Made by a program: the position numbers and the translations under genes. The notes beneath the pieces were generated by a model, which was not told the DNA's origin, ran no database searches, and saw nothing but the letters and a program-made list of their open reading frames with translations. From an uncultured Gammaproteobacteria bacterium (GTDB lineage Bacteria; Patescibacteriota; Microgenomatia; Daviesbacterales; UBA10151): 30,400 bases of DNA. How positions within the stretch are numbered: the first letter of the stretch is position 1; each line of letters starts with the position of its first letter. Positions 3,058-26,366 of the stretch are shown piece by piece. The stretch lies in NCBI GenBank assembly GCA_964360965.1, contig CAYHYM010000009.1, positions 1 through 30,400 of the forward strand, given 5' to 3'.

Positions 3058-4446
3058 TTAAAGTTTGAATCTTCTATCCGCTAAAAAAGGGTTGGGTTTT
3101 CTTTTCATCTCTCCTGTACCCAAAAGTATACCTCTTTGCAAAGTAAATTCACCATATTTGTTGTTAATTTGATCTATAGCTTGAATAATTTTTTCTTGAA
3201 CAGCTGATTCTGGTAATAAAGACAGATTTTGGGGAGTTTCACTCTTTAAATTAGAGATAGAAACTCCCACCGTTCTAATTTTATCTCCATTCCAGATAGT
3301 ATGAAATATCTTCCAGGTAGCTTTAAAAATTTCTAGACCATCACAAGTATATGGGATAGTTACTTGCATCCCATCACCATGGAACACACCTCCGAGGTGT
3401 AACTGCATTTCTTCACCTCGGAGGTGGAAGCTATATCTAAACCAGCAGTGGACAGTTCTACCAACTAATTTTTTAGCTCTCAACCTTCTAGCTACTAACT
3501 CTGTCAGTTTTAATAAAAGCTGTTTGATCTCCTCTAGGTTATTAGTATCATGAGAAGTAGTGTGCCTATGCCCAATACTCTTAACCTCTTCTTTCTCATA
3601 AAAAGGGATAATAGGAGCATGATTTATTCCACGACTGCAATCATATAAAAATTGCCCATAGCTTTTAAAATAAAAAATTAAAATATCAAGAGTTGCCTCT
3701 CTTAGCTGTTTAAAATTAAAAATTCCCAGTTTATTCAGCCTATTTTTAATCCCTGGACCTATTCCACAAACAGCATCAAGTTCCAGTTTATCCAAAACCT
3801 TAATTGCCTCTTTCTGATTGGCAATAATCACCAACCCATCTGGCTTTTGTAAAGATCCAGCAAGCTTTGCCAAAAGCTTGTTATATGAAATGCCTATGGA
3901 ACAAGTTATCCACTCACCAATTTCAGTTTTGATTCTTTTTTTAATGCTTTTAGCAATTTCTAATATGTCATCCCCGCGTAGGCGGGGATCCAATAAACTG
4001 TTAGCGCTATTATTTAATTGGATTCCTGCATTCGCAGGAATGACAGAAGTAGGTATCTCTAAAAACACTTCATCTATTGAAAACACCTCCAGATAGGGAG
4101 AATAATCTTTTAGAATATTTAAAAACTTTTTTGTTGTCTCCAAATATTTATCAGAATCCCCTGGGACAATTGTAATTTGCGGACAAAGCTTTTTGGCTTC
4201 CCAAATTTGCATGCCGGTTTTAACTCCGAACTTTTTAGCCTCTACAGAGGCTGCCCCAATCACTGTCCGTTCCCCGCCTCGACTCGCTCGCTCGTCGGGC
4301 GAGGCGGGCATCCTATCTCCACCAGTAACCCCAATTGGTTTTCCTCTCAGCCTGGGATTAGCCTGCTGCTCCACAGTAGCAAAGTAGCTATTAAAATCAA
4401 CATGTAAAATAGTTCTTATTCTTCTTCTACCATCTCCAGAAACCAT
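3058..4446 (-). CDS. dinB: Y-family DNA polymerase IV
   Basis: ILHVDFNSYFATVEQ, KPIGVTGG, SIDEVFLE, SIGISYNKLLAKLAGSLQKPDG, GIGPGIKNRLNKLGI. The ORF is interrupted in frame by three GC-rich elements. Confidence 0.9.
   Translation of the reverse strand: MVSGDGRRRIRTILHVDFNSYFATVEQQANPRLRGKPIGVTGGDRMPASPDERASRGGERTVIGAASVEAKKFGVKTGMQIWEAKKLCPQITIVPGDSDKYLETTKKFLNILKDYSPYLEVFSIDEVFLEIPTSVIPANAGIQLNNSANSLLDPRLRGDDILEIAKSIKKRIKTEIGEWITCSIGISYNKLLAKLAGSLQKPDGLVIIANQKEAIKVLDKLELDAVCGIGPGIKNRLNKLGIFNFKQLREATLDILIFYFKSYGQFLYDCSRGINHAPIIPFYEKEEVKSIGHRHTTSHDTNNLEEIKQLLLKLTELVARRLRAKKLVGRTVHCWFRYSFHLRGEEMQLHLGGVFHGDGMQVTIPYTCDGLEIFKATWKIFHTIWNGDKIRTVGVSISNLKSETPQNLSLLPESAVQEKIIQAIDQINNKYGEFTLQRGILLGTGEMKRKPNPFLADRRFKL
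3386..3426. repeat. pair of inverted REP-like hairpins inside dinB
   Basis: ACACCTCCGAGGTGT (3386-3400) and CACCTCGGAGGTG (3414-3426) are mutual reverse complements. Translated in frame as HLRGEEMQLHLGGV. Confidence 0.7.
3967..4044. mobile_element. 78-nt MITE-like element with terminal inverted repeats, in frame in dinB
   Basis: Left end GTCATCCCCGCGTAGGCGGGGATCCAAT. Right end ATTGGATTCCTGCATTCGCAGGAATGAC, the reverse complement of GTCATTCCTGCGAATGCAGGAATCCAAT. Encodes VIPANAGIQLNNSANSLLDPRLRGDD (26 codons). Confidence 0.75.
4266..4310. repeat. GC-rich hairpin insertion inside dinB
   Basis: CCCGCCTCG (4273-4281) pairs with CGAGGCGGG (4300-4308). Encodes PASPDERASRGGE between the conserved blocks KPIGVTGG and VIGAASVEAKKFGV. 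Confidence 0.65.
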
Positions 4447-4903: not shown

Positions 4904-6397
4904 ATGAAGATATTTGTTATAACGCTATTTCTCCTCTCATTTTTTTTAGTATTCAACTCCCCAGTCAAAGCCATAGTTGATCCCCTCTCTGTTCCTAACA
5001 ATAAATTTGGCATTCATATTATTCAAGCTACTCCTGATGAATCATCTCCGGCGGCCCAACTAGTCAACACCAACGGTGACTGGGGCTATATTACTTTTTT
5101 AATAGAATCCAAGGATAGAAATGAAAGTAAATGGCAGGAGTTTTTTAATGATCTAAGAAGAAAACATCTAATTCCGATTGTTAGGTTAGCCACCAAACCA
5201 GTTAATACTCACTGGGAAAGACCTTATGAAAAAGAGGGTGAAGCTTGGGCCCACTTTTTAGACAAATTAGTCTGGCCTACCAAAAACAGGTATATCATTA
5301 TCTATAATGAGCCAAATCATGCTCAAGAATGGGGAAATTTTACAGATCCTATTTCTTATGCCCATATTTTAAATGACACCATAGATACTCTAAAGAAAAA
5401 GTCTCCGGATTTTTATGTCTTAAATGCCGGTTTTGATGCTTCAGCCCCTCATCAACCACCTAGATTTTTTGATGAAGTAGTTTTTTTACAGGAAATGGAA
5501 AAGGCAGTACCGGGAATTTTTGAAAAATTAGATGGGTGGGTGTCACATTCCTATCCAAATCCGGAATTTTCCGGTTCTCCGGATGCTTTGGGGCGAGGCA
5601 CTGTTCGAACCTACGTTTGGGAACTACAGCAACTGCGTAATTTGGGTGTTTCGAAAAATTTGCCTGTTTTTATCACAGAAACCGGCTGGAAACATGCTGA
5701 AGGATTAACTTTTGAGCCTAGATTCCCTGCAGCAGATACTGTGGCCAGATATTACCAACAGGCTTTTGAAAATGCCTGGAACAGTTCCAGGATCATCGCC
5801 GTGACTCCATTTTTATTAAGCTATCAAGAGCCTTTATTTGCCCATTTTTCCTTTAAAGGACCCACCAATTCCGGACTATATTATCCTCAATATGACACCA
5901 TCAAAAACATGCCTAAAATTTCCGGCCAACCCATCCAGGAAAACAAGGCTACTTTAATCAAAGGTGAGGTCTTTTCATCCATTGTTTCAGGAGAAACTTA
6001 TACCATTTTTCTAACTTTCAAAAATAGCGGCCAATCAATCTGGAATGATGGCTCGCCTCGCTCCTCGCCTCGCGGCGAAGCGGGCGCGGGCGGAGCGGGG
6101 AAAAGGGTGGCTTTGGTGCCAATTGAAAGTGGCAGAGAATTGGGCATAGAACAGATATCCATTCCAGATGGGGTGCAAATTGAACCGGGCAAAGAATATA
6201 CCTTCCAAATTCAACTGAAAGCTCCGCTGAAGGGTATTTTTAAGGTTAGTTTGAATCTGTTTACCGGCAGCCACCCGTTTGATTCAAAACCACCGGTTAT
6301 TTTGCGCCTTTTAACTAAATTAAAATGGAGAAATTCTCCGGCCGGAGAATATATTTTAAGAACTATCGGCACCATAGGTGAATCTACTCAATTATAA
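4904..6397 (+). CDS. secreted clan GH-A-like glycoside hydrolase with C-terminal Ig-like domain
   Basis: Signal peptide MKIFVITLFLLSFFLVFNSPVKA. IIIYNEPNH (acid/base-type NEP motif) and VFITETGW (nucleophile-type TE motif). C-terminal beta-rich region carries a GC-rich insert. Confidence 0.5.
   Translation: MKIFVITLFLLSFFLVFNSPVKAIVDPLSVPNNKFGIHIIQATPDESSPAAQLVNTNGDWGYITFLIESKDRNESKWQEFFNDLRRKHLIPIVRLATKPVNTHWERPYEKEGEAWAHFLDKLVWPTKNRYIIIYNEPNHAQEWGNFTDPISYAHILNDTIDTLKKKSPDFYVLNAGFDASAPHQPPRFFDEVVFLQEMEKAVPGIFEKLDGWVSHSYPNPEFSGSPDALGRGTVRTYVWELQQLRNLGVSKNLPVFITETGWKHAEGLTFEPRFPAADTVARYYQQAFENAWNSSRIIAVTPFLLSYQEPLFAHFSFKGPTNSGLYYPQYDTIKNMPKISGQPIQENKATLIKGEVFSSIVSGETYTIFLTFKNSGQSIWNDGSPRSSPRGEAGAGGAGKRVALVPIESGRELGIEQISIPDGVQIEPGKEYTFQIQLKAPLKGIFKVSLNLFTGSHPFDSKPPVILRLLTKLKWRNSPAGEYILRTIGTIGESTQL
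6051..6100. repeat. GC-rich element (SPRSSPR..GEAGAGGAG family) in frame in the hydrolase gene
   Basis: GCTCGCCTCGCTCCTCGCCTCGCG+GCGAAGCGGGCGCGGGCGGAGCGGGG. Both blocks recur exactly in uvrA at 20723-20793 on the other strand. Confidence 0.8.
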
Positions 6398-6816: not shown

Positions 6817-6919
6817 TTGACAAGTAATAAATAGTATGGTTAAATATACTTACTTGTTAACCGAAAGGTTTACAAGTTCTCGAAGAAAGCCCCGCAAGGG
6901 GTTTTTTTCGTGGTAAAAT
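6817..6919 (+). repeat. 103-nt promoter-hairpin-terminator module, copy 1
   Basis: 102/103 identical to 8352-8454. Contains TTGACA-N17-TTAAAT, a 10-bp hairpin with GAAA loop, an intrinsic terminator, then TGgTAAAAT. Confidence 0.85.
6852..6908 (+). ncRNA. candidate ~55-nt small RNA (copy 1)
   Basis: Predicted start about 7 nt after TTAAAT (6840-6845). Hairpin CTTGTTAACC-GAAA-GGTTTACAAG (6853-6876). Terminator GCCCC-GCAA-GGGGT plus T-run (6886-6908). Confidence 0.35.
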
Positions 6920-8351: not shown

Positions 8352-8454
8352 TTGACAAGTAATAAATAGTATGGTTAAATATACTTACTTGTTAACCGAA
8401 AGGTTTACAAGTTCTCGAAGAAAGCCCCGCAAGGGGCTTTTTTCGTGGTAAAAT
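8352..8454 (+). repeat. 103-nt promoter-hairpin-terminator module, copy 2
   Basis: 102/103 identical to 6817-6919. The only difference is C versus T in the terminator stem. Ends 9 nt before tRNA-Arg. Confidence 0.85.
8387..8443 (+). ncRNA. candidate ~55-nt small RNA (copy 2)
   Basis: Same architecture as 6852-6908. Terminator GCCCC-GCAA-GGGGC followed by TTTTTT. Confidence 0.35.
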
Positions 8455-8463
8455 TAAACATAT

Positions 8464-8536
8464 GCGCCCGTAGTTTAATGGATAGAACGTGTGGCTTCGG
8501 ACCATAAGGTTGGGGGTTCGACTCCCTCCGGGCGCG
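8464..8536 (+). tRNA. tRNA-Arg(UCG)
   Basis: Acceptor GCGCCCG/CGGGCGC, anticodon stem TGTGG/CCATA, loop CT-TCG-GA, T arm GGGGG-TTCGACT-CCCTC. Confidence 0.8.
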
Positions 8537-8546
8537 CACCCAAAAT

Positions 8547-8619
8547 GGGCCGGTAGCTCAACTGGTAGAGCAACTCCCTCTTAAGGAGTAGGTTCAGGGT
8601 TCAAATCCCTGCCGGCTCA
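8547..8619 (+). tRNA. tRNA-Lys(CUU)
   Basis: Acceptor GGGCCGG/CCGGCTC, D arm GCTC-AACTGGT-AGAGC, anticodon stem ACTCC/GGAGT, loop CT-CTT-AA, T arm CAGGG-TTCAAAT-CCCTG. Confidence 0.85.
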
Positions 8620-8621
8620 CT

Positions 8622-8673
8622 CTTCGACTCGCACAATATAATTGTGCTCGCTCAGAGTAAACTCGAGTCGAAG
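8622..8673. repeat. palindromic GC-rich mini-element (GAGTCGAAGG family)
   Basis: Arms CTTCGACTCG (8622-8631) and CGAGTCGAAG (8664-8673). Inner palindrome CACAAT-ATA-ATTGTG (8632-8646). The right end supplies GAAGGG 6 nt before the GIY-YIG ATG. Confidence 0.65.
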
Positions 8674-8681
8674 GGCATTTT

Positions 8682-8936
8682 ATGTCTTGGTATGTCTACA
8701 TTGCAAAAGCAAAAACAGGTAGATACTACACCGGTATCACCACAAATCCAAATAAAAGAATTATTAAACATAACTCAGGTAAAGGTTCAAGGTTTGCCAT
8801 AGAACAAGGTCCACTTGAACTGGTCTATATCTCCAAAGCATTTCCAGACAAATCAAAAGCAAGAAAACGGGAAATTCAAATCAAAGGTTGGTCAAGAGAA
8901 AAGAAATTAAAACTAATAAGCGGAGTGTGGAAGTAA
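8682..8936 (+). CDS. GIY-YIG nuclease superfamily protein (YhbQ/UPF0213-like)
   Basis: WYVYIAK..GRYYTGITTNPNKRIIKHN...KREIQIKGWSREKK, the typical stand-alone GIY-YIG layout (84 aa). Confidence 0.75.
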   Translation: MSWYVYIAKAKTGRYYTGITTNPNKRIIKHNSGKGSRFAIEQGPLELVYISKAFPDKSKARKREIQIKGWSREKKLKLISGVWK

Positions 8937-13354: not shown

Positions 13355-14671
13355 TCATAGTAGCGCTTCCTTATTCCTTAGTTTTCTATGGAAAGTTAAG
13401 GCAAACCTGTGAGCTTCATCACGCAATTTTTGCAAAAGCTGCAAACTTAAGGATTTTTTGGAAAGTTTTATAATTCGAGCCTTGCGAGAATTACTCAGCG
13501 AAATTCGAGCCTTGCGAGAATTACTCAGTGAAGCGCTAATTTCTCCCTCCGGGGGATAGAGCCATTCCCTTCTTTTGGCCAGACCGAAGATGGGTAGATT
13601 GTGATTAGTAGTTTGTAGTTCGTAGTTTACCGCATTAACTTGTCCCTTGCCACCATCTACTATTATCAGATTAGGGATAGGCCAATCTTTGTGTTTTAAC
13701 CTTCTTCTGATCACTTCTCTCATCATTGCTACATCATTAGGTTTGCCGCTGAGGCGAATCTTAAATTTTCTATACTGTGATTTATCAATATCTCCCTCAT
13801 TTAAAACCACCATTGAACCTGTGGCATTTTTCCCTCCAATATTGGAGATATCATATCCTTCTATTCTTAAAGGTAAAGTTTTTAGATTTAAAACTTTTTT
13901 CAGCTCCTGCAGGGCCAAATTTTTTTGATCTTCGAAAAAATTAGAATTCTCCAAATAAGCCTGGACATTGTTTGGTTGAGTGAGATAATTTATTCCGTCT
14001 ATGATTTTTTTAAGTTTACTTGCTTCTTCAAACTTCTCTCTCTCTGATAGCTTTAACATATCCATTGTCAGTTCCTCAATTAATTTATCCTTTTTCCCGT
14101 CCATAAATTTTGAGAATCGGTTGATTATTTTGTTATAGTCTTCCTTGGAAATTAGCCCAACACAAACTCCTGGACATAATCCCAGATGATGATAAAAACA
14201 TGCTCGACGGGTTCGCAAGGCCAGGCCTTGCGAGGCTGAACACCAAGGGAAGACTTTCCTGAGTAGTTTGAGGGTGTTCCTAACAGTTCTAGCTGAAGGA
14301 AAAGGGCCAAAGAATTTTTTTACCCTTCTCAAATCTTGTTTTCTAAGAGTAATAACTTTGGGAAATTCTTCTTTGGTGATACCAATATATAAATAATCCT
14401 TATCATCTGTTAGTCTGACATTATATTTTGGCAAGTATTTTTTAATAAGACTCGCCTCTAAGATAAGCGCTTCCAACTCTGATGCAACAACAATAGTTTC
14501 AACTGAAGATATTGCAGAAGATAACATGGCTGTCTTTGCGCTCAGACCGAATCGGTTGCTGCGTGAAAAATATGAAGATATCCGATGGTATAAATTTATG
14601 GCTTTACCCACATAAATTACCTGACCATCTTTATTTTTAAAAATATATACCCCGGGTTTTTTGGGAAACAT
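13355..14671 (-). CDS. uvrC: excinuclease ABC subunit C, short form without (HhH)2 domain
   Basis: N-terminal GIY-YIG (PGVYIFKNKDGQVIYVGKA..LYHRISSYF), a UVR-like helix pair (EREKFEEASKLKKIIDGI), IEGYDISNIGG and RDEAHRFAL. The ORF stops about 20 aa after the last motif. Confidence 0.85.
   Translation of the reverse strand: MFPKKPGVYIFKNKDGQVIYVGKAINLYHRISSYFSRSNRFGLSAKTAMLSSAISSVETIVVASELEALILEASLIKKYLPKYNVRLTDDKDYLYIGITKEEFPKVITLRKQDLRRVKKFFGPFPSARTVRNTLKLLRKVFPWCSASQGLALRTRRACFYHHLGLCPGVCVGLISKEDYNKIINRFSKFMDGKKDKLIEELTMDMLKLSEREKFEEASKLKKIIDGINYLTQPNNVQAYLENSNFFEDQKNLALQELKKVLNLKTLPLRIEGYDISNIGGKNATGSMVVLNEGDIDKSQYRKFKIRLSGKPNDVAMMREVIRRRLKHKDWPIPNLIIVDGGKGQVNAVNYELQTTNHNLPIFGLAKRREWLYPPEGEISASLSNSRKARISLSNSRKARIIKLSKKSLSLQLLQKLRDEAHRFALTFHRKLRNKEALL
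13472..13531. repeat. 2 x 30-nt tandem duplication inside uvrC
   Basis: AATTCGAGCCTTGCGAGAATTACTCAG(C/T)GA twice, 29/30 identical. Encodes SLSNSRKARI twice. Confidence 0.85.
14203..14238. repeat. GC-rich palindrome inside uvrC
   Basis: CGCAAGGCC-A-GGCCTTGCG (14214-14232). Shares the GCCTTGCGAG core with the tandem unit at 13472-13531. Encodes ASQGLALRTR. Confidence 0.6.
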
Positions 14672-16749: not shown

Positions 16750-16782
16750 TTTAGCTTGACACCTGAGAGGTGTAAACGTAAA
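16750..16782 (+). repeat. REP-like element upstream of the RAYT ORF
   Basis: TTTAGCTTGACACCTGAGAGGTGTAAACGTAAA with hairpin ACACCT-GAG-AGGTGT at 16759-16773. Exact inverted copy at 26126-26158. Confidence 0.85.
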
Positions 16783-18179: not shown

Positions 18180-21100
18180 TTATAGTATCTTTGCCAAATA
18201 TTGCCCTGTATAGGAGGATTTGATTTTGGATATATCTTTGGGGGTGCCTTCTGCAATAACTTGTCCGCCTTTATCCCCACCTTCCGGGCCTAAATCTATT
18301 ACCCAATCGGTATTTTTAATCACATCAAGATTGTGCTCTATAATCACCACAGTATTTCCATAGTTTACCAGCTTCCTTAAGATGGTTAATAACCTTTCTA
18401 TATCAGCAAAATGTAAACCGGTGGTGGGTTCGTCCAAAATATAAAGAGTGTGACCAGTTGGACGCTTAGATAATTCAGCAGAAAGTTTAATCCTTTGTGC
18501 CTCTCCACCAGACAGCGTGGGAGCTGGTTGGCCCAATTTTATATATCCCAATCCCACATCATTTAGTACTTGCAGTTTATTTTTGATATTGGGAATATTT
18601 TCAAAAAACTTTAAAGCTTCCTCAACAGTCATGTCCAAAACTTCAGAAATATTTTTATCCTTAAAGTGAATTTCCAAAGCCTCCCTGTTGTAGCGGGCAC
18701 CGTTGCAAGCCTCACAAGTCACATAAACATCCGGCAAAAACTGCATTTCAATTTTGAGCTGCCCTTCCCCTTCACAAACCTCACACCTTCCACCTTTGAC
18801 ATTAAAGGAAAACCTGCCTGGTCCATAACCCCTAATTTTAGCTTCAGTACTTTGGGCAAATAGGTCTCTGACAAAGGTAAAGGCTTCTGTATAGGTGGCC
18901 GGATTTGAGCGGGGAGTCCGGCCTATTGGTGATTGGTCTACCAAAACCACTTTATCCACATACTCTACCCCCTCCAGTTCTTTAAAAGCCCCTGGTCTTT
19001 CCTTGGATCTATAAATTTTTTGAGCTAACGCCTTATATAAGATGTCGTGAATTAAAGTAGATTTTCCGGATCCTGAAACCCCTGATATGGCTATAAACTG
19101 CCCTAAAGGAAAATCCACATTGATATTTTTTAAATTGTGTTGAGAAGCACCAAGAACCTTCAAAACATGATTGTCATTCCCGCGCAGGTCATCGACTCCG
19201 AGGTCGCTCAGACTCGAGGAGCGGGAATCTATTTTAATATTATTTATGGATCCCGTATCCCTTCGGCCTCGCTCAGGGCGGGCAAGTTCAGGATGACCGT
19301 GAACAGTCACTTTTTTCTTACCTGATAAATACTGTCCAGTTAAAGATGTAGTACTTTTTTTAATCTGATCCGGAGTGCCTGTGGTTACTATCTCCCCACC
19401 ATGTTCACCAGCTCCTGGCCCAATTTCAATTAATAGATCTGCATTCTCCATCATCTCTGCATCATGCTCATTAACTATCACTGTATTTCCCAAATCTCTT
19501 AATTTTTTTAAAGTTTCAATTAATCTTGAGTTATCTCTTTGGTGTAAACCAATAGAAGGCTCATCTAAAACATACAAAACTCCGGATAAACCCGAACCAA
19601 TTTGGGAGGCCAGCCTGATTCTTTGTGATTCTCCCCCGGCTAAGGTCATAGCAGCGCGATCCAGCGTTAAATAATCCAAACCAACATCAATTAAGAACTT
19701 AACTCTGGCTTGGATTTCTTTTAAAATAGGTTTGGCAATTTGAGTTTCACGATCATTTAAAATAGATTCTATCACTTCACTACGTTTCGCTCCAGAATGA
19801 CTATTCCCCAATCTTTTAATCCATTCCAAAGCCTCTTTAATAGATTGTGTCACCACTTCTGCAATATTTAATCCATCAATGGTTATTGACAAGGCTTCAT
19901 CTTTAAGTCTTGCTCCATGACACTTAGGACAAATCTCTTTAACCATATATTTTTCTATTTCCCTTTTCACATAATCAGATTCGGATTCTTGATATCTTTG
20001 TTTTAGGTATGAAACCAAACCTTGAAAGCTAGATTTAAAATGAGTCCATCTTCCCTCTCTGTTTCTTCCTTCCACTCTAAATTCTTCGTCCCCAGCACCA
20101 TTAAGTAGCACATTTCTGGCTTTCTCAGATAATTCACCCAGTCTGGTATTTAAATCAAAACCGTAAACTTTGCCTACTGACTGAATAAGTCTTGAGAACC
20201 AGGTTTCATGAGTGGCTAACTTTTGCCATGGTAAAATTCCACCTTCTGCAATAGATAAAATGGGGTTTAAAACCATTTCCGGATCAATTTCCAAAAGTGA
20301 TCCTAAACCATGGCAGGTAGGACAAGCTCCATGAGGAGAATTAAAAGAAAATAGTCTTGGTTCCACCTCGGATAAGGCAATATTGTCAACCGGACAGGCA
20401 AATCTTTCAGAATAAAGATGATCGTCCATTTTCTTGGGATTTTGGGGAAATTCTAAAGAAGCGTCCAGGACTTCAGAAACAATCACGGATCCTTCACCTA
20501 ATTTGAGCGCTGTCTCGATGGATTGGGAGAGCCTGTTTATAATGTCATTCCCGCGCATGCGGGAATCCAATTCCGAACGTGACTTTGTTAATTGGATCCT
20601 CCTCGAGTCTGAGCGACCTCGGAGTCGAAGACCTGCCTTCGCAGGGATAACAGACTTATCCAATATGAGTCTGTCCACTACTGCATCGATAGTATGCTTA
20701 TTAGTTTTAATCAACACTAAATCCCCCGCTCCGCCCGCGCCCGCTTCGCCGCGCCCTGCGTCGCCGGAGGCGCGAGGCGAGGAGCGAGGCGAGTCTGTTA
20801 AGTCTCTAATTTGTCCATCAACCCTAACCTTTGAAAAACCTTTTTTCCTCAAATCTTCAAAAAGTTGGAAATATTCTCCTTTTCTGTCTTTAACCACAGG
20901 AGCCAAAATCATTATTCTTCTCGAAGACCCTGAGCGAGACTTCGACGGTGAGTCTTTCGACCCTGAGCTCAAGACCGAAGGGCTCAGTCGAACCGCGTAG
21001 CGAGTCGAAGGGTTCCCTACCACTTGTTCCACAATTTGTTCTACTGACATTCTACTAATCTCCCTTCCACAAATTGGACAATGGGGATGGCCAACCCTGG

Positions 21101-21443
21101 CAAATAAAAGCCTTAAATAATCATAGACCTCAGTAGTTGTTCCCACAGTAGAACGTGGATTATGTGAAACACCTTTTTGGTCAATAGAGATGGCCGGGGA
21201 TAAACCCTCAATATAATCAACATCAGGCTTGTCCATTACCCCTAAAAACTGCCTGGCATAAGCAGATAAAGATTCCACATATCTTCTTTGACCTTCTGCA
21301 TAAAGGGTATCAAAAGATAAAGAAGACTTGCCGGAACCGGAAATCCCCGTTAAAACCACCAACTTGTTCTTGGGAATTTCCAGATCAATATTCTTGAGGT
21401 TATGCTCTCTCGCCCCTTTTATAATAATCTTATCTATAGCCAT
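18180..21443 (-). CDS. uvrA: excinuclease ABC subunit A, expanded by in-frame insertions
   Basis: GISGSGKSSL and GVSGSGKSTL Walker A motifs. Two LSGGE signatures (LAGGESQRIRLA, LSGGEAQRIKLS). Zinc modules CPxC...CxxCxG. 1087 aa. Confidence 0.95.
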   Translation of the reverse strand: MAIDKIIIKGAREHNLKNIDLEIPKNKLVVLTGISGSGKSSLSFDTLYAEGQRRYVESLSAYARQFLGVMDKPDVDYIEGLSPAISIDQKGVSHNPRSTVGTTTEVYDYLRLLFARVGHPHCPICGREISRMSVEQIVEQVVGNPSTRYAVRLSPSVLSSGSKDSPSKSRSGSSRRIMILAPVVKDRKGEYFQLFEDLRKKGFSKVRVDGQIRDLTDSPRSSPRASGDAGRGEAGAGGAGDLVLIKTNKHTIDAVVDRLILDKSVIPAKAGLRLRGRSDSRRIQLTKSRSELDSRMRGNDIINRLSQSIETALKLGEGSVIVSEVLDASLEFPQNPKKMDDHLYSERFACPVDNIALSEVEPRLFSFNSPHGACPTCHGLGSLLEIDPEMVLNPILSIAEGGILPWQKLATHETWFSRLIQSVGKVYGFDLNTRLGELSEKARNVLLNGAGDEEFRVEGRNREGRWTHFKSSFQGLVSYLKQRYQESESDYVKREIEKYMVKEICPKCHGARLKDEALSITIDGLNIAEVVTQSIKEALEWIKRLGNSHSGAKRSEVIESILNDRETQIAKPILKEIQARVKFLIDVGLDYLTLDRAAMTLAGGESQRIRLASQIGSGLSGVLYVLDEPSIGLHQRDNSRLIETLKKLRDLGNTVIVNEHDAEMMENADLLIEIGPGAGEHGGEIVTTGTPDQIKKSTTSLTGQYLSGKKKVTVHGHPELARPERGRRDTGSINNIKIDSRSSSLSDLGVDDLRGNDNHVLKVLGASQHNLKNINVDFPLGQFIAISGVSGSGKSTLIHDILYKALAQKIYRSKERPGAFKELEGVEYVDKVVLVDQSPIGRTPRSNPATYTEAFTFVRDLFAQSTEAKIRGYGPGRFSFNVKGGRCEVCEGEGQLKIEMQFLPDVYVTCEACNGARYNREALEIHFKDKNISEVLDMTVEEALKFFENIPNIKNKLQVLNDVGLGYIKLGQPAPTLSGGEAQRIKLSAELSKRPTGHTLYILDEPTTGLHFADIERLLTILRKLVNYGNTVVIIEHNLDVIKNTDWVIDLGPEGGDKGGQVIAEGTPKDISKIKSSYTGQYLAKIL
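19173..19297. mobile_element. TIR MITE-like element in uvrA with nested insertions
   Basis: The GTCATTCCCGCGCAG..GCGGGAATC end is split by a 33-nt element at 19188-19220. The GGATCC..TCAGGATGAC end contains a CTGAGCG/CCGAAGG-type segment at about 19254-19287. Confidence 0.65.
20544..20651. mobile_element. TIR MITE-like element in uvrA with one nested 33-nt insertion
   Basis: Intact end GTCATTCCCGCGCATGCGGGAATCCAATT. The other end, ATTGGATCC|CTGCCTTCGCAGGGATAAC, is split by TCCTCGAGTCTGAGCGACCTCGGAGTCGAAGAC (20600-20632). 108 nt, 36 codons. Confidence 0.75.
20723..20793. repeat. GC-rich element (SPRSSPR..GEAGAGGAG family) in frame in uvrA
   Basis: Reverse complement is CTCGCCTCGCTCCTCGCCTCGCG + 21 extra nt + GCGAAGCGGGCGCGGGCGGAGCGGGGG. 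The 23-nt and 26-nt blocks are identical to 6052-6100. Confidence 0.8.
20920..21013. repeat. GC-rich composite element (CCTGAGC / GTCGAAGG family) in frame in uvrA
   Basis: Contains CCCTGAGCGAGAC, CCCTGAGCTCAAGACCGAAGGGCTCAG and GCGAGTCGAAGGG. Encodes about 30 residues (STRYAVRLSPSVLSSGSKDSPSKSRSGSS) where canonical UvrA has a short linker. Confidence 0.65.
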
Positions 21444-21461
21444 AGTTTATAATCCCTTCGG

Positions 21462-21571
21462 GTCCGAGCTCTTCGAGTCCGAGCTCTTCGAGTCCGAGCC
21501 TCAGAGTCGAGGACCTCAGAGTCGAGGACCTCAGGGTCGAAGACCTGAGCGACCGAAGGGAGTCGAAGGAC
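21462..21571. repeat. GC-rich ~15-nt-period tandem array in the uvrA 5' region
   Basis: Units all start GTC(C)GA: GTCCGAGCTCTTCGA x2, GTCCGAGCCTCAGA, GTCGAGGACCTCAGA, GTCGAGGACCTCAGG, GTCGAAGACCTGAGCGACCGAAGGGA, GTCGAAGGAC. Confidence 0.8.
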
Positions 21572-21682
21572 ACTAAAATTACCGCACTATTGTAAACCAT
21601 TTTGCAAGATTTTTAAAGGATTAATATGTTAAAATCTGTTCAAAATGAAGATAGAACAATATTTACTACAGAATCCAATACT

Positions 21683-25688: not shown

Positions 25689-26366
25689 ATGCTATACATT
25701 ATTCCCACTCCCATAGGTAATTTAAAAGATATCACTTTAAGAGCACTTGAAGTTTTAAAAGAGGTGGATTCTATAATTTGTGAAGACACCAGAAGAACTG
25801 GATTACTTCTTAATCATTACCAGATTAAAAAGCCTCTTTTGGTATTGAACGATTACAACGAAGCAAAAATCCTGGATTCCACTATAGAGCGGCTCAGAGC
25901 TGGAGAGAATCTTGCTTTAGTGTCTGATGCAGGTACCCCACTTATTTCTGATCCAGGATATAAACTGGTCAGAGAGTGTTTCCACCAGGGGATTCCGGTT
26001 GATTCCCTCCCGGGTCCTTCTTCTGTTATCACAGCTTTAACACTTTCCGGTCTTCCTCCTGATAAATTTTTATTTCTAGGATATTTACCGGAAAAGCTTG
26101 GTCACAGAAAAACTTTACTAGAAACTTTACGTTTACACCTCTCAGGTGTCAAGCTAAACCCAACTTATATTTTATATATAGCTCCCCATAAACTGATCAA
26201 AACTCTCGCTGAGATGAAAGAAGTTTTTGGGGATATTGAAGTAGTTTTAGCCCATGAATTAACTAAAATCCATCAAAGTGTGGAAAAGAAAAAAATAAGT
26301 GAATGGCTGGAAACATTAAAAAATCCAAAGGGAGAGTATATATTACTATTCAACAAGGGGTGGTAA
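25689..26366 (+). CDS. rsmI: 16S rRNA (cytidine1402-2'-O)-methyltransferase
   Basis: LYIIPTPIGNLKDITLRALEVL, IICEDTRRTG, VSDAGTPLISDPG. Carries a 33-nt REP insertion in frame. Confidence 0.85.
   Translation: MLYIIPTPIGNLKDITLRALEVLKEVDSIICEDTRRTGLLLNHYQIKKPLLVLNDYNEAKILDSTIERLRAGENLALVSDAGTPLISDPGYKLVRECFHQGIPVDSLPGPSSVITALTLSGLPPDKFLFLGYLPEKLGHRKTLLETLRLHLSGVKLNPTYILYIAPHKLIKTLAEMKEVFGDIEVVLAHELTKIHQSVEKKKISEWLETLKNPKGEYILLFNKGW
26126..26158 (-). repeat. REP-like element, 11 in-frame codons inside rsmI
   Basis: TTTACGTTTACACCTCTCAGGTGTCAAGCTAAA is the exact reverse complement of 16750-16782 (33/33). Confidence 0.9.

What the first reader, a model, noticed from the sequence alone, without database searches (positions are those of the whole stretch)
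20544..20651. TIR mini-element in uvrA carrying a nested 33-nt insertion of another element
One end is intact (GTCATTCCCGCGCATGCGGGAATCCAATT). The other end should read ATTGGATCCCTGCCTTCGCAGGGATAAC. Instead it is split after ATTGGATCC by TCCTCGAGTCTGAGCGACCTCGGAGTCGAAGAC (20600-20632). The composite is 108 nt, or 36 codons, and stays open. A 32/33-identical copy of the nested piece lies in the other uvrA mini-element, in the opposite orientation (19188-19220). Element-in-element insertion, with both layers multiples of three, suggests repeated colonisation with selection only against frame disruption.
Basis: seen in the sequence. Interest (0 to 1): 0.7.

Follow-up and report, generated by a model that had tools for sequence, protein, structure and literature searches.

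The report
Nested mini-insertions inside a uvrA gene
A DNA-repair gene of an uncultivated groundwater bacterium carries, in frame, a small hairpin-ended selfish element that was itself invaded by a 33-base insertion, and that 33-base piece occurs with the same sequence in genomes labelled as many different bacterial phyla.

Summary
The window comes from a Candidatus Daviesbacteria (CPR) genome. Its uvrA is 1087 aa, against about 965 aa in relatives.

The outer 75-nt element (108 nt with the insert) ends in two inverted hairpins. These closely match the NTS/SRM repeats recognised by Ssn GIY-YIG single-strand nucleases. Another Daviesbacteria uvrA carries the same element at the same codon without the 33 nt, giving an exact empty site.

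The 33-mer is TC[T/A]TCGACTCCGAGGTCGCTCAGACTCGAGGAG. It is a discrete unit:
- It was found in at least 114 genome stretches labelled as many phyla.
- Conservation stops sharply at both ends.
- It has no target duplication and almost always follows a G.
- Five of its six frames are stop-free.
- It is a clean 33-nt or 11-codon insertion in two further native genes, rluD and PBP2.

It resembles the 5' leader of tRNA-linked single-domain GIY-YIG genes, one of which lies in this window. How it moves is not shown; a GIY-YIG or single-strand route is inferred. In-frame palindromic elements are a known kind. The 33-mer family appears undescribed.

The parts
18180..21443 (-). uvrA ORF, 1087 aa, host of at least five GC-rich in-frame inserts.
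   Evidence: ORF list and translation. It is 72-80% identical to Daviesbacteria UvrA proteins of about 961-1038 aa. The PDB alignment to UvrA breaks into four blocks exactly at the insert regions.
20544..20651 (-). Composite 108-nt segment: a 75-nt outer hairpin-ended element plus the nested 33-mer. It encodes VIPAKAGLRLRGRSDSRRIQLTKSRSELDSRMRGND.
   Evidence: With the 33 nt removed it folds as three hairpins (-20.5 kcal/mol, z -5.4), as does the intact 78-nt copy.
20543..20572 (+). Intact end of the outer element: the NTS/SRM-like hairpin TGTCATTCCCGCGCATGCGGGAATCCAATT.
   Evidence: 3 mismatches in 28 to the Neisseria NTS consensus CGTCATTCCCGCGMAVGCGGGAATCYRG (consensus from PMC11893778).
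20633..20652 (-). Outer part of the interrupted end. On the - strand it reads TGTTATCCCTGCGAAGGCAG, and it continues as GGATCCAATT at 20590-20599.
   Evidence: Joining the two parts gives TGTTATCCCTGCGAAGGCAGGGATCCAATT, which equals the P0010 copy at the junction.
20599..20632 (-). Nested 33-mer, copy A, shown as the 34-nt conserved block GTCTTCGACTCCGAGGTCGCTCAGACTCGAGGAG. The net insertion is 33 nt and the boundary is ambiguous by one G.
19173..19297 (+). Second hairpin-ended element in uvrA, carrying two nested pieces.
   Evidence: The orthologous uninterrupted 59-nt copy in P0012 (L003) is GTCATCCCGCACTTGATGCGGGATCCATAAATATAGATTCCCGCTTTCGCGGGAATGAC. With the 33-mer removed, its left end matches the published SRM pattern and differs from NTS at 2 of 28 positions.
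19188..19221 (+). Nested 33-mer, copy B (GTCATCGA variant), in the loop of the NTS-like hairpin ATTCCCGC-GCAG^-GCGGGAAT.
   Evidence: The T/A variant position is the main polymorphism of the family, with 97 T and 18 A.
19259..19278 (-). Second nested piece: the hairpin module CCCTGAGCGAGGCCGAAGGG inside the other end of the second element.
   Evidence: It is absent from the P0012 copy. The same module is nested in GTCATTGCGAG hairpins of other genomes, L022 and L070. It is also the hairpin found just 5' of GIY-YIG genes.
3967..4044 (+). Uninterrupted 78-nt member of the outer-element family, in frame inside ORF 3058-4446 (-).
8682..8936 (+). 84-aa single-domain GIY-YIG nuclease gene, directly downstream of tRNA-Arg and tRNA-Lys. 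It is a candidate trans-acting factor (inferred).
   Evidence: Pfam PF01541, E 3e-18. The closest solved structure is the UPF0213 protein 1zg2, E 4e-16. tRNAs at 8464-8619.
8620..8678 (+). Leader hairpin of the GIY-YIG gene: TCTTCGACTC-(17 nt)-TCGCTCAGA-GTAAA-CTCGAG-TCGAAGGGC. It shares 10+9+6 nt blocks, in the same order, with the 33-mer.
   Evidence: TCTTCGACTC occurs only here and in the 33-mer in the whole window. Fold -13.9 kcal/mol, z -5.5. Alignment scores against shuffles.
21460..21570 (-). Intergenic array of related 15-nt GC-rich modules upstream of uvrA. It includes TTCGACTCCCTTCGGTCGCTCAG|GTCTTCGAC.
   Evidence: (D4).

Best explanation
The segment consists of two layers of non-autonomous, GC-rich selfish DNA in an AT-rich CPR genome, tolerated because both layers keep uvrA in frame.

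**Layer 1, the outer element.** It is 75 nt: two inverted NTS/SRM-type hairpins (GTCAT-ATTCCCGCG-loop-CGCGGGAAT-CC) around a short central hairpin. It resembles a gene-less version of the SRM-GIY-YIG-SRM units seen in other genomes. It sits at a hot-spot loop of UvrA and was there before layer 2 arrived.

**Layer 2, the 33-mer.** Its sequence is TC[T/A]TCGACTCCGAGGTCGCTCAGACTCGAGGAG. It is a discrete 33-nt insertion unit that entered both uvrA elements separately, one copy of each common sequence variant. Both times it landed on the GTCAT strand just after GCAG, without target duplication. It is 11 codons long and stop-free in five frames, so it is translated as an 11-residue loop.

**Inferred, not shown.** The 33-mer is a contracted derivative of the leader hairpin of tRNA-linked single-domain GIY-YIG (Ssn-like) nuclease genes. 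It would be moved in trans through single-stranded DNA cut near hairpins, followed by host ligation or repair.

I put about 0.9 on the nested-insertion anatomy and about 0.35 on the GIY-YIG/single-strand mechanism.
For: **Empty sites**
- P0010 for the 33-mer, and P0012 for both nested pieces of the second element.
- L006 against L118: a clean 33-nt gap in rluD, with the flanks about 91% identical (273/299 aligned bases).
- PBP2: an 11-aa insert absent from 9 homologues, including one 80% identical.

**The 33-mer is a discrete unit**
- Among 117 occurrences, information content is about 2 bits across 34 nt and falls to near 0 outside.
- A G precedes it in 113 of 116 cases. The left tetranucleotide is CCTG 37 times, CAGG 25 and CCCG 12.
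- Where it lies in GTCAT hairpins it is co-oriented with them in all of about 13 genuine cases (19 pattern hits, of which five are non-hairpin repeats and one a script artefact), with none clearly anti-oriented.
- 41 of 117 occurrences lie in long ORFs, using all five open frames.

**Breadth and reliability**
- At least 114 genome stretches, labelled as CPR lineages, Zixibacteria, Ignavibacteria, TA06, Gammaproteobacteria and Bdellovibrionales.
- An independent assembly has an identical sequence.

**The outer ends are NTS/SRM-like**. SRM-GIY-YIG-SRM units occur in L062 and L063.

**The link to GIY-YIG genes**
- The window has a GIY-YIG gene whose leader shares ordered blocks with the 33-mer.
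- 23% of 60 leaders score above the 99th percentile of shuffles, and the best come from the subclade closest to the window's protein.
- In L108 the 33-mer lies directly 5' of a GIY-YIG ORF.
Against: **Against the mechanism**
- No enzyme activity is shown.
- GIY-YIG nucleases are not known to join DNA.
- The window's protein is closest to UPF0213, not demonstrably to the Ssn clade.
- The 33-mer is absent from 198 kb around 80 GIY-YIG loci. GIY-YIG genes are not clearly enriched near 33-mers: 6 of 117 loci.
- The 33-mer folds weakly on its own (-3.4 kcal/mol, z +1.3), so it is a poor hairpin substrate.

**Against parts of the anatomy**
- The exact boundary differs by 1 nt between the uvrA and rluD empty sites unless a synonymous change is assumed.
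- The P0010 UvrA protein is 76% identical to the window's (uvrA DNA segments 71-78%) while the element is 88% identical. Independent insertion at a hot spot, rather than orthology, cannot be excluded.
- Phylum labels are those of the MAG records and were not checked independently.
Confidence: 0.85

Rival explanations
1. The 33-mer spreads by templated copying rather than transposition. This would be replication template switching or gene conversion between dispersed GC-rich repeats, primed by microhomology (…CAGG / …GGAG-AGC).
For: - The left junction C-N-N-G|TCTTCGAC mimics the unit junctions of tandem module arrays, such as ..GCTCAGG|TCTTCGAC.. upstream of uvrA.
- Many copies sit at the same position of the same hairpin family, CCTG^AGC.
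- Junctions carry 1-2 nt ambiguities.
- Within single genomes the 33-mer sits in one composite repeat that has itself multiplied.
Against: - Insertions into AT-rich native coding sequence (rluD, PBP2) have no repeat homology.
- The length is always exactly 33 nt with sharp ends.
- Identity across phylum labels is hard to explain by local copying alone.
Confidence: 0.25
2. The P0010-type allele is a secondary deletion. The 33 nt would then be an original part of this TIR element variant and was lost elsewhere.
For: Polarity cannot be read from a single filled/empty pair.
Against: - Three uninterrupted copies exist at or near the site or within the family: P0010, P0038 and window 3967-4044.
- The 33 nt splits an 8-bp stem into 5 bp.
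- The same 33 nt occurs in unrelated contexts and is absent from 9 PBP2 homologues and from all other rluD homologues of about 314 aa.
Confidence: 0.03
3. It is an assembly or library artefact, with a synthetic or chimeric sequence inserted into contigs.
For: The 33-mer contains type IIS and XhoI-like sites (GTCTTC, CTCGAG, GAGGAG). It was found only in metagenome-assembled genomes, not in phage, plasmid or viral collections.
Against: - Two independent assemblies agree.
- The flanks are contiguous and in frame.
- The copies come from many unrelated studies and assemblers.
- Target and orientation biases are consistent.
- Related native modules lie next to GIY-YIG genes.
Confidence: 0.02
4. The inserts are adaptive additions to UvrA, such as functional linker peptides, rather than selfish DNA.
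For: 32 of 120 homologues carry extra residues at the same loop. All catalytic motifs of UvrA are intact.
Against: - The inserted peptides differ between lineages and derive from several repeat families.
- The same DNA occurs in intergenic regions and in unrelated genes, in five reading frames.
- The inserted regions do not align to any solved UvrA.
Confidence: 0.04

Closest known systems
NTS / Ssn-related motifs (SRM) and the Ssn GIY-YIG single-strand nucleases (Neisseria dRS3/NTS; PMC11893778)
   Same: - The ends of both uvrA elements are GTCAT + ATTCCCGCG-loop-CGCGGGAAT + C hairpins. They lie 2-3 mismatches from the 28-nt Neisseria NTS.
- One end fits the published SRM pattern once the 33-mer is removed.
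- Gene units flanked by inverted SRMs occur in related loci.
- The paper shows that the hairpin loop tolerates extensions, which fits the loop-inserted copy.
   Different: - Here two inverted hairpins form a 57-78-nt gene-less unit that sits in frame inside essential genes of a CPR bacterium.
- No SRM-flanked ssn gene was seen in the window.
- Mobility of NTS/SRM is only a hypothesis in that paper.
- The 33-mer itself is not an SRM.
Rickettsia palindromic elements (RPE; own knowledge of Ogata et al. 2000, and the MITE review PMC10969869 listed)
   Same: Short palindromic repeats are inserted in frame in protein-coding genes of a reduced, AT-rich genome. They are translated as extra surface loops.
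   Different: Sequence family, host phylum and size differ. An element nested within an element, and the 33-nt inner unit, are not RPE features that I know of. Homology to RPE was not tested.
Neisseria intergenic mosaic elements / BIMEs (mosaics of short repeats)
   Same: A combinatorial mosaic of short GC-rich modules around dRS3-type hairpins.
   Different: Those are intergenic. Here the mosaic is built inside ORFs and the nesting is resolved by empty sites.
IS200/IS605-type single-strand transposition and its miniature derivatives (PATEs), REP/RAYT
   Same: There is no target duplication. Insertion lies 3' of a short motif. It is strand-biased and associated with hairpins in single-stranded DNA.
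   Different: - At 33 nt there is no room for two subterminal hairpins.
- The left motif is loose (C-N-N-G).
- No Y1 transposase was seen in the flanks.
- The sequence is identical across phylum labels, unlike REPs.
Mobile GC clusters of yeast mitochondrial DNA (own knowledge)
   Same: Very small GC-rich elements in an AT-rich genome. Some lie in frame in a coding gene (var1), some are nested, and their mechanism is unknown.
   Different: They are organellar, their sequences are unrelated, and they often have short target duplications.

Membership tests
NTS/SRM hairpin repeats (Ssn-associated) | Sequence motif HGTCWY..hairpin..RNCYNB, or the NTS 28-mer CGTCATTCCCGCGMAVGCGGGAATCYRG. | tested here: met
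   The end at 19172 matches the SRM pattern after in-silico removal of the 33-mer. Shuffled controls average 0.03 matches. Mismatches to NTS are 2/28 and 3/28 for two ends and 5-7/28 for the others, with compensatory stem changes.
NTS/SRM hairpin repeats (Ssn-associated) | Co-occurrence with an ssnA-type single-domain GIY-YIG gene flanked by the same hairpins. | tested here: inconclusive
   The window has one 84-aa GIY-YIG gene, but it is flanked by a different hairpin family. SRM-GIY-YIG-SRM units were seen only in other genomes, L062 and L063. The rest of this genome was not available.
NTS/SRM hairpin repeats (Ssn-associated) | Strand-specific single-strand cleavage by the cognate Ssn a few nucleotides upstream of the hairpin. 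| not testable with these tools
   This needs biochemistry.
MITE (outer element) | Terminal inverted repeats and small size. | tested here: met
   About 28-30-nt inverted ends, 90% complementary between copies (I4). Sizes are 59-78 nt.
MITE (outer element) | Target-site duplication. | tested here: not met
   No direct repeat flanks the three window copies or the P0010/P0012 copies. The insertions are old, so loss of a duplication cannot be excluded.
MITE (outer element) | An autonomous partner with the same ends. | tested here: inconclusive
   GIY-YIG genes flanked by GTCATTGCGAG-type inverted hairpins exist. None with ATTCCCGCG-type ends was recovered.
Rickettsia palindromic elements | A palindromic repeat inserted in frame in ORFs and translated. 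| tested here: met
Rickettsia palindromic elements | Sequence homology to RPE families. | not tested
   No RPE reference set was compared.
IS200/IS605-like miniature element (33-mer) | No target duplication; insertion 3' of a fixed tetra- or pentanucleotide. | tested here: inconclusive
   There is no duplication beyond one ambiguous G. G precedes in 113/116 cases and C is at -4 in 94/116, but the tetranucleotide varies between CCTG, CAGG, CCCG and TTGG.
IS200/IS605-like miniature element (33-mer) | Subterminal hairpins at both ends, recognised by a Y1 transposase. | tested here: not met
   There is a single weak imperfect hairpin (-3.4 kcal/mol, z +1.3). No shared transposase was found in the 8-kb flanks of 114 loci.
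Ssn nuclease family (window ORF 8682-8936) | Single-domain GIY-YIG protein of about 90 aa belonging to the cd10448 clade. | tested here: inconclusive
   It is a single GIY-YIG domain of 84 aa. Y6 and E64 coincide with the catalytic residues named for SsnA. The nearest solved proteins are UPF0213. No cd10448 model or SsnA sequence was available.

The most novel reading that the evidence does not exclude
The 33-mer would be the smallest mobile DNA unit yet described. It is a 33-nt insertion without target duplication, frame-neutral, and kept identical across genomes labelled as many bacterial phyla. On this reading it derives from, and is mobilised in trans by, a hitherto undescribed class of tRNA-3'-end-linked single-domain GIY-YIG (Ssn-like) nuclease cassettes. 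That would be the first evidence that such single-strand nucleases drive DNA mobility and remodel essential proteins in CPR bacteria.
Probability: 0.3. Interest if true: 0.85.

Novelty: new variant of a known kind. Interest (0 to 1): 0.65.

Why it matters
- **Protein evolution.** Essential proteins of CPR bacteria are being lengthened by layers of tiny selfish elements. uvrA alone gained about 120 residues at recurrent hot-spot loops.
- **A lead for the Ssn field.** The work ties the recently described NTS/SRM-Ssn hairpin system to in-frame gene colonisation. It offers natural substrates, with exact empty and filled sites, for testing whether single-domain GIY-YIG single-strand nucleases mobilise DNA.
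- **An open question.** The 33-mer is identical in genomes labelled as many phyla. This asks either for a very broad horizontal vector or for a strong sequence constraint imposed by a conserved enzyme.
- **Practical consequence.** These modules create spurious "hypothetical proteins" and inflate gene lengths in metagenome annotation.

Tried and rejected
- **Known RNA family.** Rfam found only tRNAs at gathering threshold and nothing credible at E<=10 across 19100-21650.
- **tRNA-derived fragment.** The 33-mer contains TTCGACTCC-5 nt-7 nt-A, like a T-loop plus acceptor end. However, the best of 44 tRNAs in the loci differs at 5 of 20 positions. Dropped.
- **Phage or plasmid vector.** There were 0 hits in IMG/VR and only chance GC-rich hits in PLSDB and INPHARED.
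- **A transposase near the copies.** Clustering 2132 ORFs from 114 loci gave only housekeeping families.
- **Diverged copies or longer elements with the same ends.** In 868 kb there were no intermediate copies with 4-7 mismatches. The only solo half-sites were related modules.
- **Insertion always inside a hairpin.** Flank complementarity was only slightly above the mismatched-flank control: 31% against 22% with runs of at least 6 nt. The AT-rich native gene targets also argue against it.
- **Enrichment of the 33-mer next to GIY-YIG genes.** None was found in 198 kb around 80 loci.
- **Literature.** No paper contains the sequence. I found no description of in-frame repeats in CPR or of tRNA-linked GIY-YIG cassettes.
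- **Strain-level empty allele of this organism.** The nearest UvrA in the protein collection is only 80% identical.
Full report
**Source and host gene.** The window encodes a 1087-aa UvrA on the minus strand, 18180-21443. The same protein is on a Hainich groundwater contig. Its closest relatives, 72-80% identical, are UvrA of Candidatus Daviesbacteria (CPR/Patescibacteria), mostly 961-990 aa long. Aligning 120 homologues shows the extra ~120 residues as discrete inserts at a few loops, where other homologues carry different inserts. HMMER alignment to solved UvrA structures splits the query into four blocks exactly at these places. All Walker, signature and zinc-finger motifs are present in the translation.

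**Checking the observation.**
- The 33-nt piece occurs twice, at 19188-19220 (+) and 20600-20632 (-). The match is 32/33, with none expected by chance.
- An uninterrupted 78-nt member of the outer family lies at 3967-4044, in frame in another ORF.
- A separately assembled 6.9-kb contig is 99.96% identical, without gaps, over the whole uvrA.

**Empty sites.** On the coding strand the window reads GTTATCCCTGCGAAGGCAG[GTCTTCGACTCCGAGGTCGCTCAGACTCGAGGA]GGATCCAATTAAC...GGGAATGAC.
- The uvrA of P0010 has, at the same codon, GTCATCCCTGCGAAGGCAGGGATCCAATCAAAT...GGGAATGAC. That is 75 nt and 88% identical to the window element minus the 33 nt.
- P0038 has the element uninterrupted as well.
- The second element has an orthologous 59-nt copy in P0012. 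That copy lacks both the 33-mer and a second nested hairpin, CCCTGAGCGAGGCCGAAGGG.
- In both window copies the 33-mer lies on the GTCAT strand, after GCAG and before G. One copy is in the hairpin loop and one is in the 3' stem. Neither has a target duplication beyond one ambiguous G.
- As single-stranded DNA the restored 75-nt element and the intact 78-nt copy fold into three hairpins (z -5.4 and -4.4). The insertion cuts one stem from 8 to 5 bp.

**The 33-mer is a unit of its own.**
- A 24-nt core was found exactly in at least 114 stretches of GTDB representative genomes. These are labelled as many CPR lineages and as Zixibacteria, Ignavibacteria, TA06, Gammaproteobacteria and Bdellovibrionales.
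- Outside the searched core, conservation extends to a 34-nt block, G|TC[T/A]TCGA-core-AG, and then collapses.
- The base before the unit is G in 113 of 116 cases. The preceding tetranucleotide is mostly CCTG, CAGG or CCCG, and the following triplet is AGC in 46 cases.
- Hosts include the CCCTG^AGC..GTCGAAGGG hairpin, GCTCAGG^ module ends, the CCTGCCTGCCGG^CAGGCAGG palindrome, GTCAT hairpins (about 13 genuine cases, all co-oriented) and plain AT-rich coding sequence.
- About a third of copies lie in long ORFs, in all five stop-free frames.
- Two further exact tests were made. A Saccharibacteria rluD-like gene (L006) differs from a relative whose flanks are about 91% identical (L118) by a clean 33-nt gap. 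A PBP2 gene (L017) has an 11-residue insert absent from nine homologues.
- The two window copies differ at the family's main polymorphic site (T 97, A 18). This suggests two separate insertions.

**What the outer element is.** Its ends match the Neisseria Transformation Sequence CGTCATTCCCGCGMAVGCGGGAATCYRG at 25-26 of 28 positions. One end fits the published Ssn-related motif once the 33-mer is removed. That paper (PMC11893778) shows three relevant things:
- These hairpins are bound as single-stranded DNA by small GIY-YIG nucleases, which cut a few nucleotides upstream.
- The loop can be extended without loss of cleavage.
- NTS-ssnA-NTS units look like insertion sequences.

In loci L062 and L063 I see such units, with GTCATTGCGAG-type hairpins in inverted orientation on both sides of a ~90-aa GIY-YIG gene. 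The uvrA elements therefore look like gene-less pairs of such ends. The uvrA site is a hot spot. 32 of 120 homologues carry at least 8 extra residues there. Most of those inserts begin (S/T)VI and end ND, which is GTCAT...ATGAC, and they come from several hairpin families.

**A lead on the 33-mer.**
- The window encodes an 84-aa single-domain GIY-YIG protein at 8682-8936 (nearest structures are UPF0213), immediately after two tRNA genes.
- Its 5' leader, TCTTCGACTC-(17)-TCGCTCAGA-GTAAA-CTCGAG-TCGAAGGGC, shares three ordered blocks with the 33-mer. TCTTCGACTC occurs nowhere else in the window.
- Among 60 non-identical metagenomic loci encoding relatives of this protein, 41 have a tRNA of one of ten isotypes ending exactly where the leader starts (..CCA|TTCGACTCG..).
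- 33 of the 60 have the TTCGACTCG..CTCANNGYAAAC module, against 0 of 828 control windows. 49 of the 60 have a YTGAGY..YCGAAG hairpin just before the start codon, against 6 of 828.
- 23% of the leaders align to the 33-mer above the 99th percentile of shuffles. The best are those nearest to the window's gene.
- The hairpin nested in the second uvrA element, which is also the commonest host of the 33-mer, is this same pre-ATG hairpin.
- In L108 the 33-mer lies inside that hairpin, directly 5' of a GIY-YIG ORF.

**Limits.**
- The link to GIY-YIG nucleases rests on sequence resemblance and a shared left terminus only.
- The 33-mer was not found in 198 kb around 80 GIY-YIG loci. No enzyme family is enriched in its flanks. 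It folds weakly alone.
- Templated copying between repeats remains a serious rival for how it spreads.
- Taxon labels are as deposited.
- No strain-level empty allele of this organism was available.

**Verdict.** The outer element belongs to a recently described hairpin family and behaves like the in-frame palindromic elements of Rickettsia. The nested 33-mer, its breadth, its rules of insertion and the tRNA-linked GIY-YIG cassettes appear undescribed in the searched literature.

Noticed in passing
window 8464-8936; loci L119-L198: Small GIY-YIG genes related to ORF 8682-8936 sit immediately 3' of tRNA genes of ten isotypes in 41 of 60 loci. A conserved leader (TTCGACTCG..CTCGCTCAGNGTAAAC, then a CTGAGC..TCGAAGGGC hairpin) starts at the tRNA end. 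Some loci repeat the tRNA 3' end downstream of the gene (L125, L129). This looks like a mobile cassette that targets tRNA 3' ends.
   Followed up: partly
window 20715-20795 and 6052-6100: A very GC-rich insert in uvrA (SPRSSPRASGDAGRGEAGAGGAG) has 30/30 and 23/23-nt inverted matches inside ORF 4904-6397 (..SPRSSPRGEAGAGGAG..). Ten other UvrA homologues have SPRGEAG-like inserts at the same site.
   Followed up: partly
window 20930-21010: A further in-frame uvrA insert (TRYAVRLSPSVLSSGSKDSPS...) is made of a mosaic of TTCGACTCG and CTGAGC..CGAAGG modules related to the GIY-YIG leader.
   Followed up: partly
uvrA residues about 262-300 and homologues P0002-P0120: The loop between DRLxLD and RLSQSIE is an insertion hot spot. 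32 of 120 Daviesbacteria UvrA proteins carry at least 8 extra residues there, from several GTCAT...ATGAC hairpin families (VIPAKAGIQ, VIASEAKQS, VILSAAKN, VIPSERSSRGN).
   Followed up: partly
L062 4666-5070 and L063 2352-2708: GIY-YIG genes of about 90 aa are flanked on both sides by inverted GTCATTGCGAG..GCAATC hairpins. This is the NTS-ssnA-NTS architecture, seen in records labelled Berkelbacteria and Gammaproteobacteria.
   Followed up: partly
window 6817-6919 and 8352-8454: A 103-nt direct repeat, 99% identical and 1.5 kb apart, brackets a tRNA and several small ORFs upstream of the tRNA/GIY-YIG region.
   Followed up: no
window 16750-16782 and 26126-26158 (also 17441, 17565): A perfect 33-nt inverted repeat, TTTAGCTTGACACCTGAGAGGTGTAAACGTAAA, contains the palindrome ACACCT-N3-AGGTGT next to TTGACA. 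It could be a shared promoter or operator.
   Followed up: no
window 13472-13531: A tandem 30-nt duplication (97%) lies inside ORF 13355-14671.
   Followed up: no
window 21460-21570: The region upstream of uvrA holds a tandem array of 15-nt GC-rich units (GTCCGAGCTCTTCGA x2, GTCGAGGACCTCAGA x2...) related to the 33-mer halves.
   Followed up: partly
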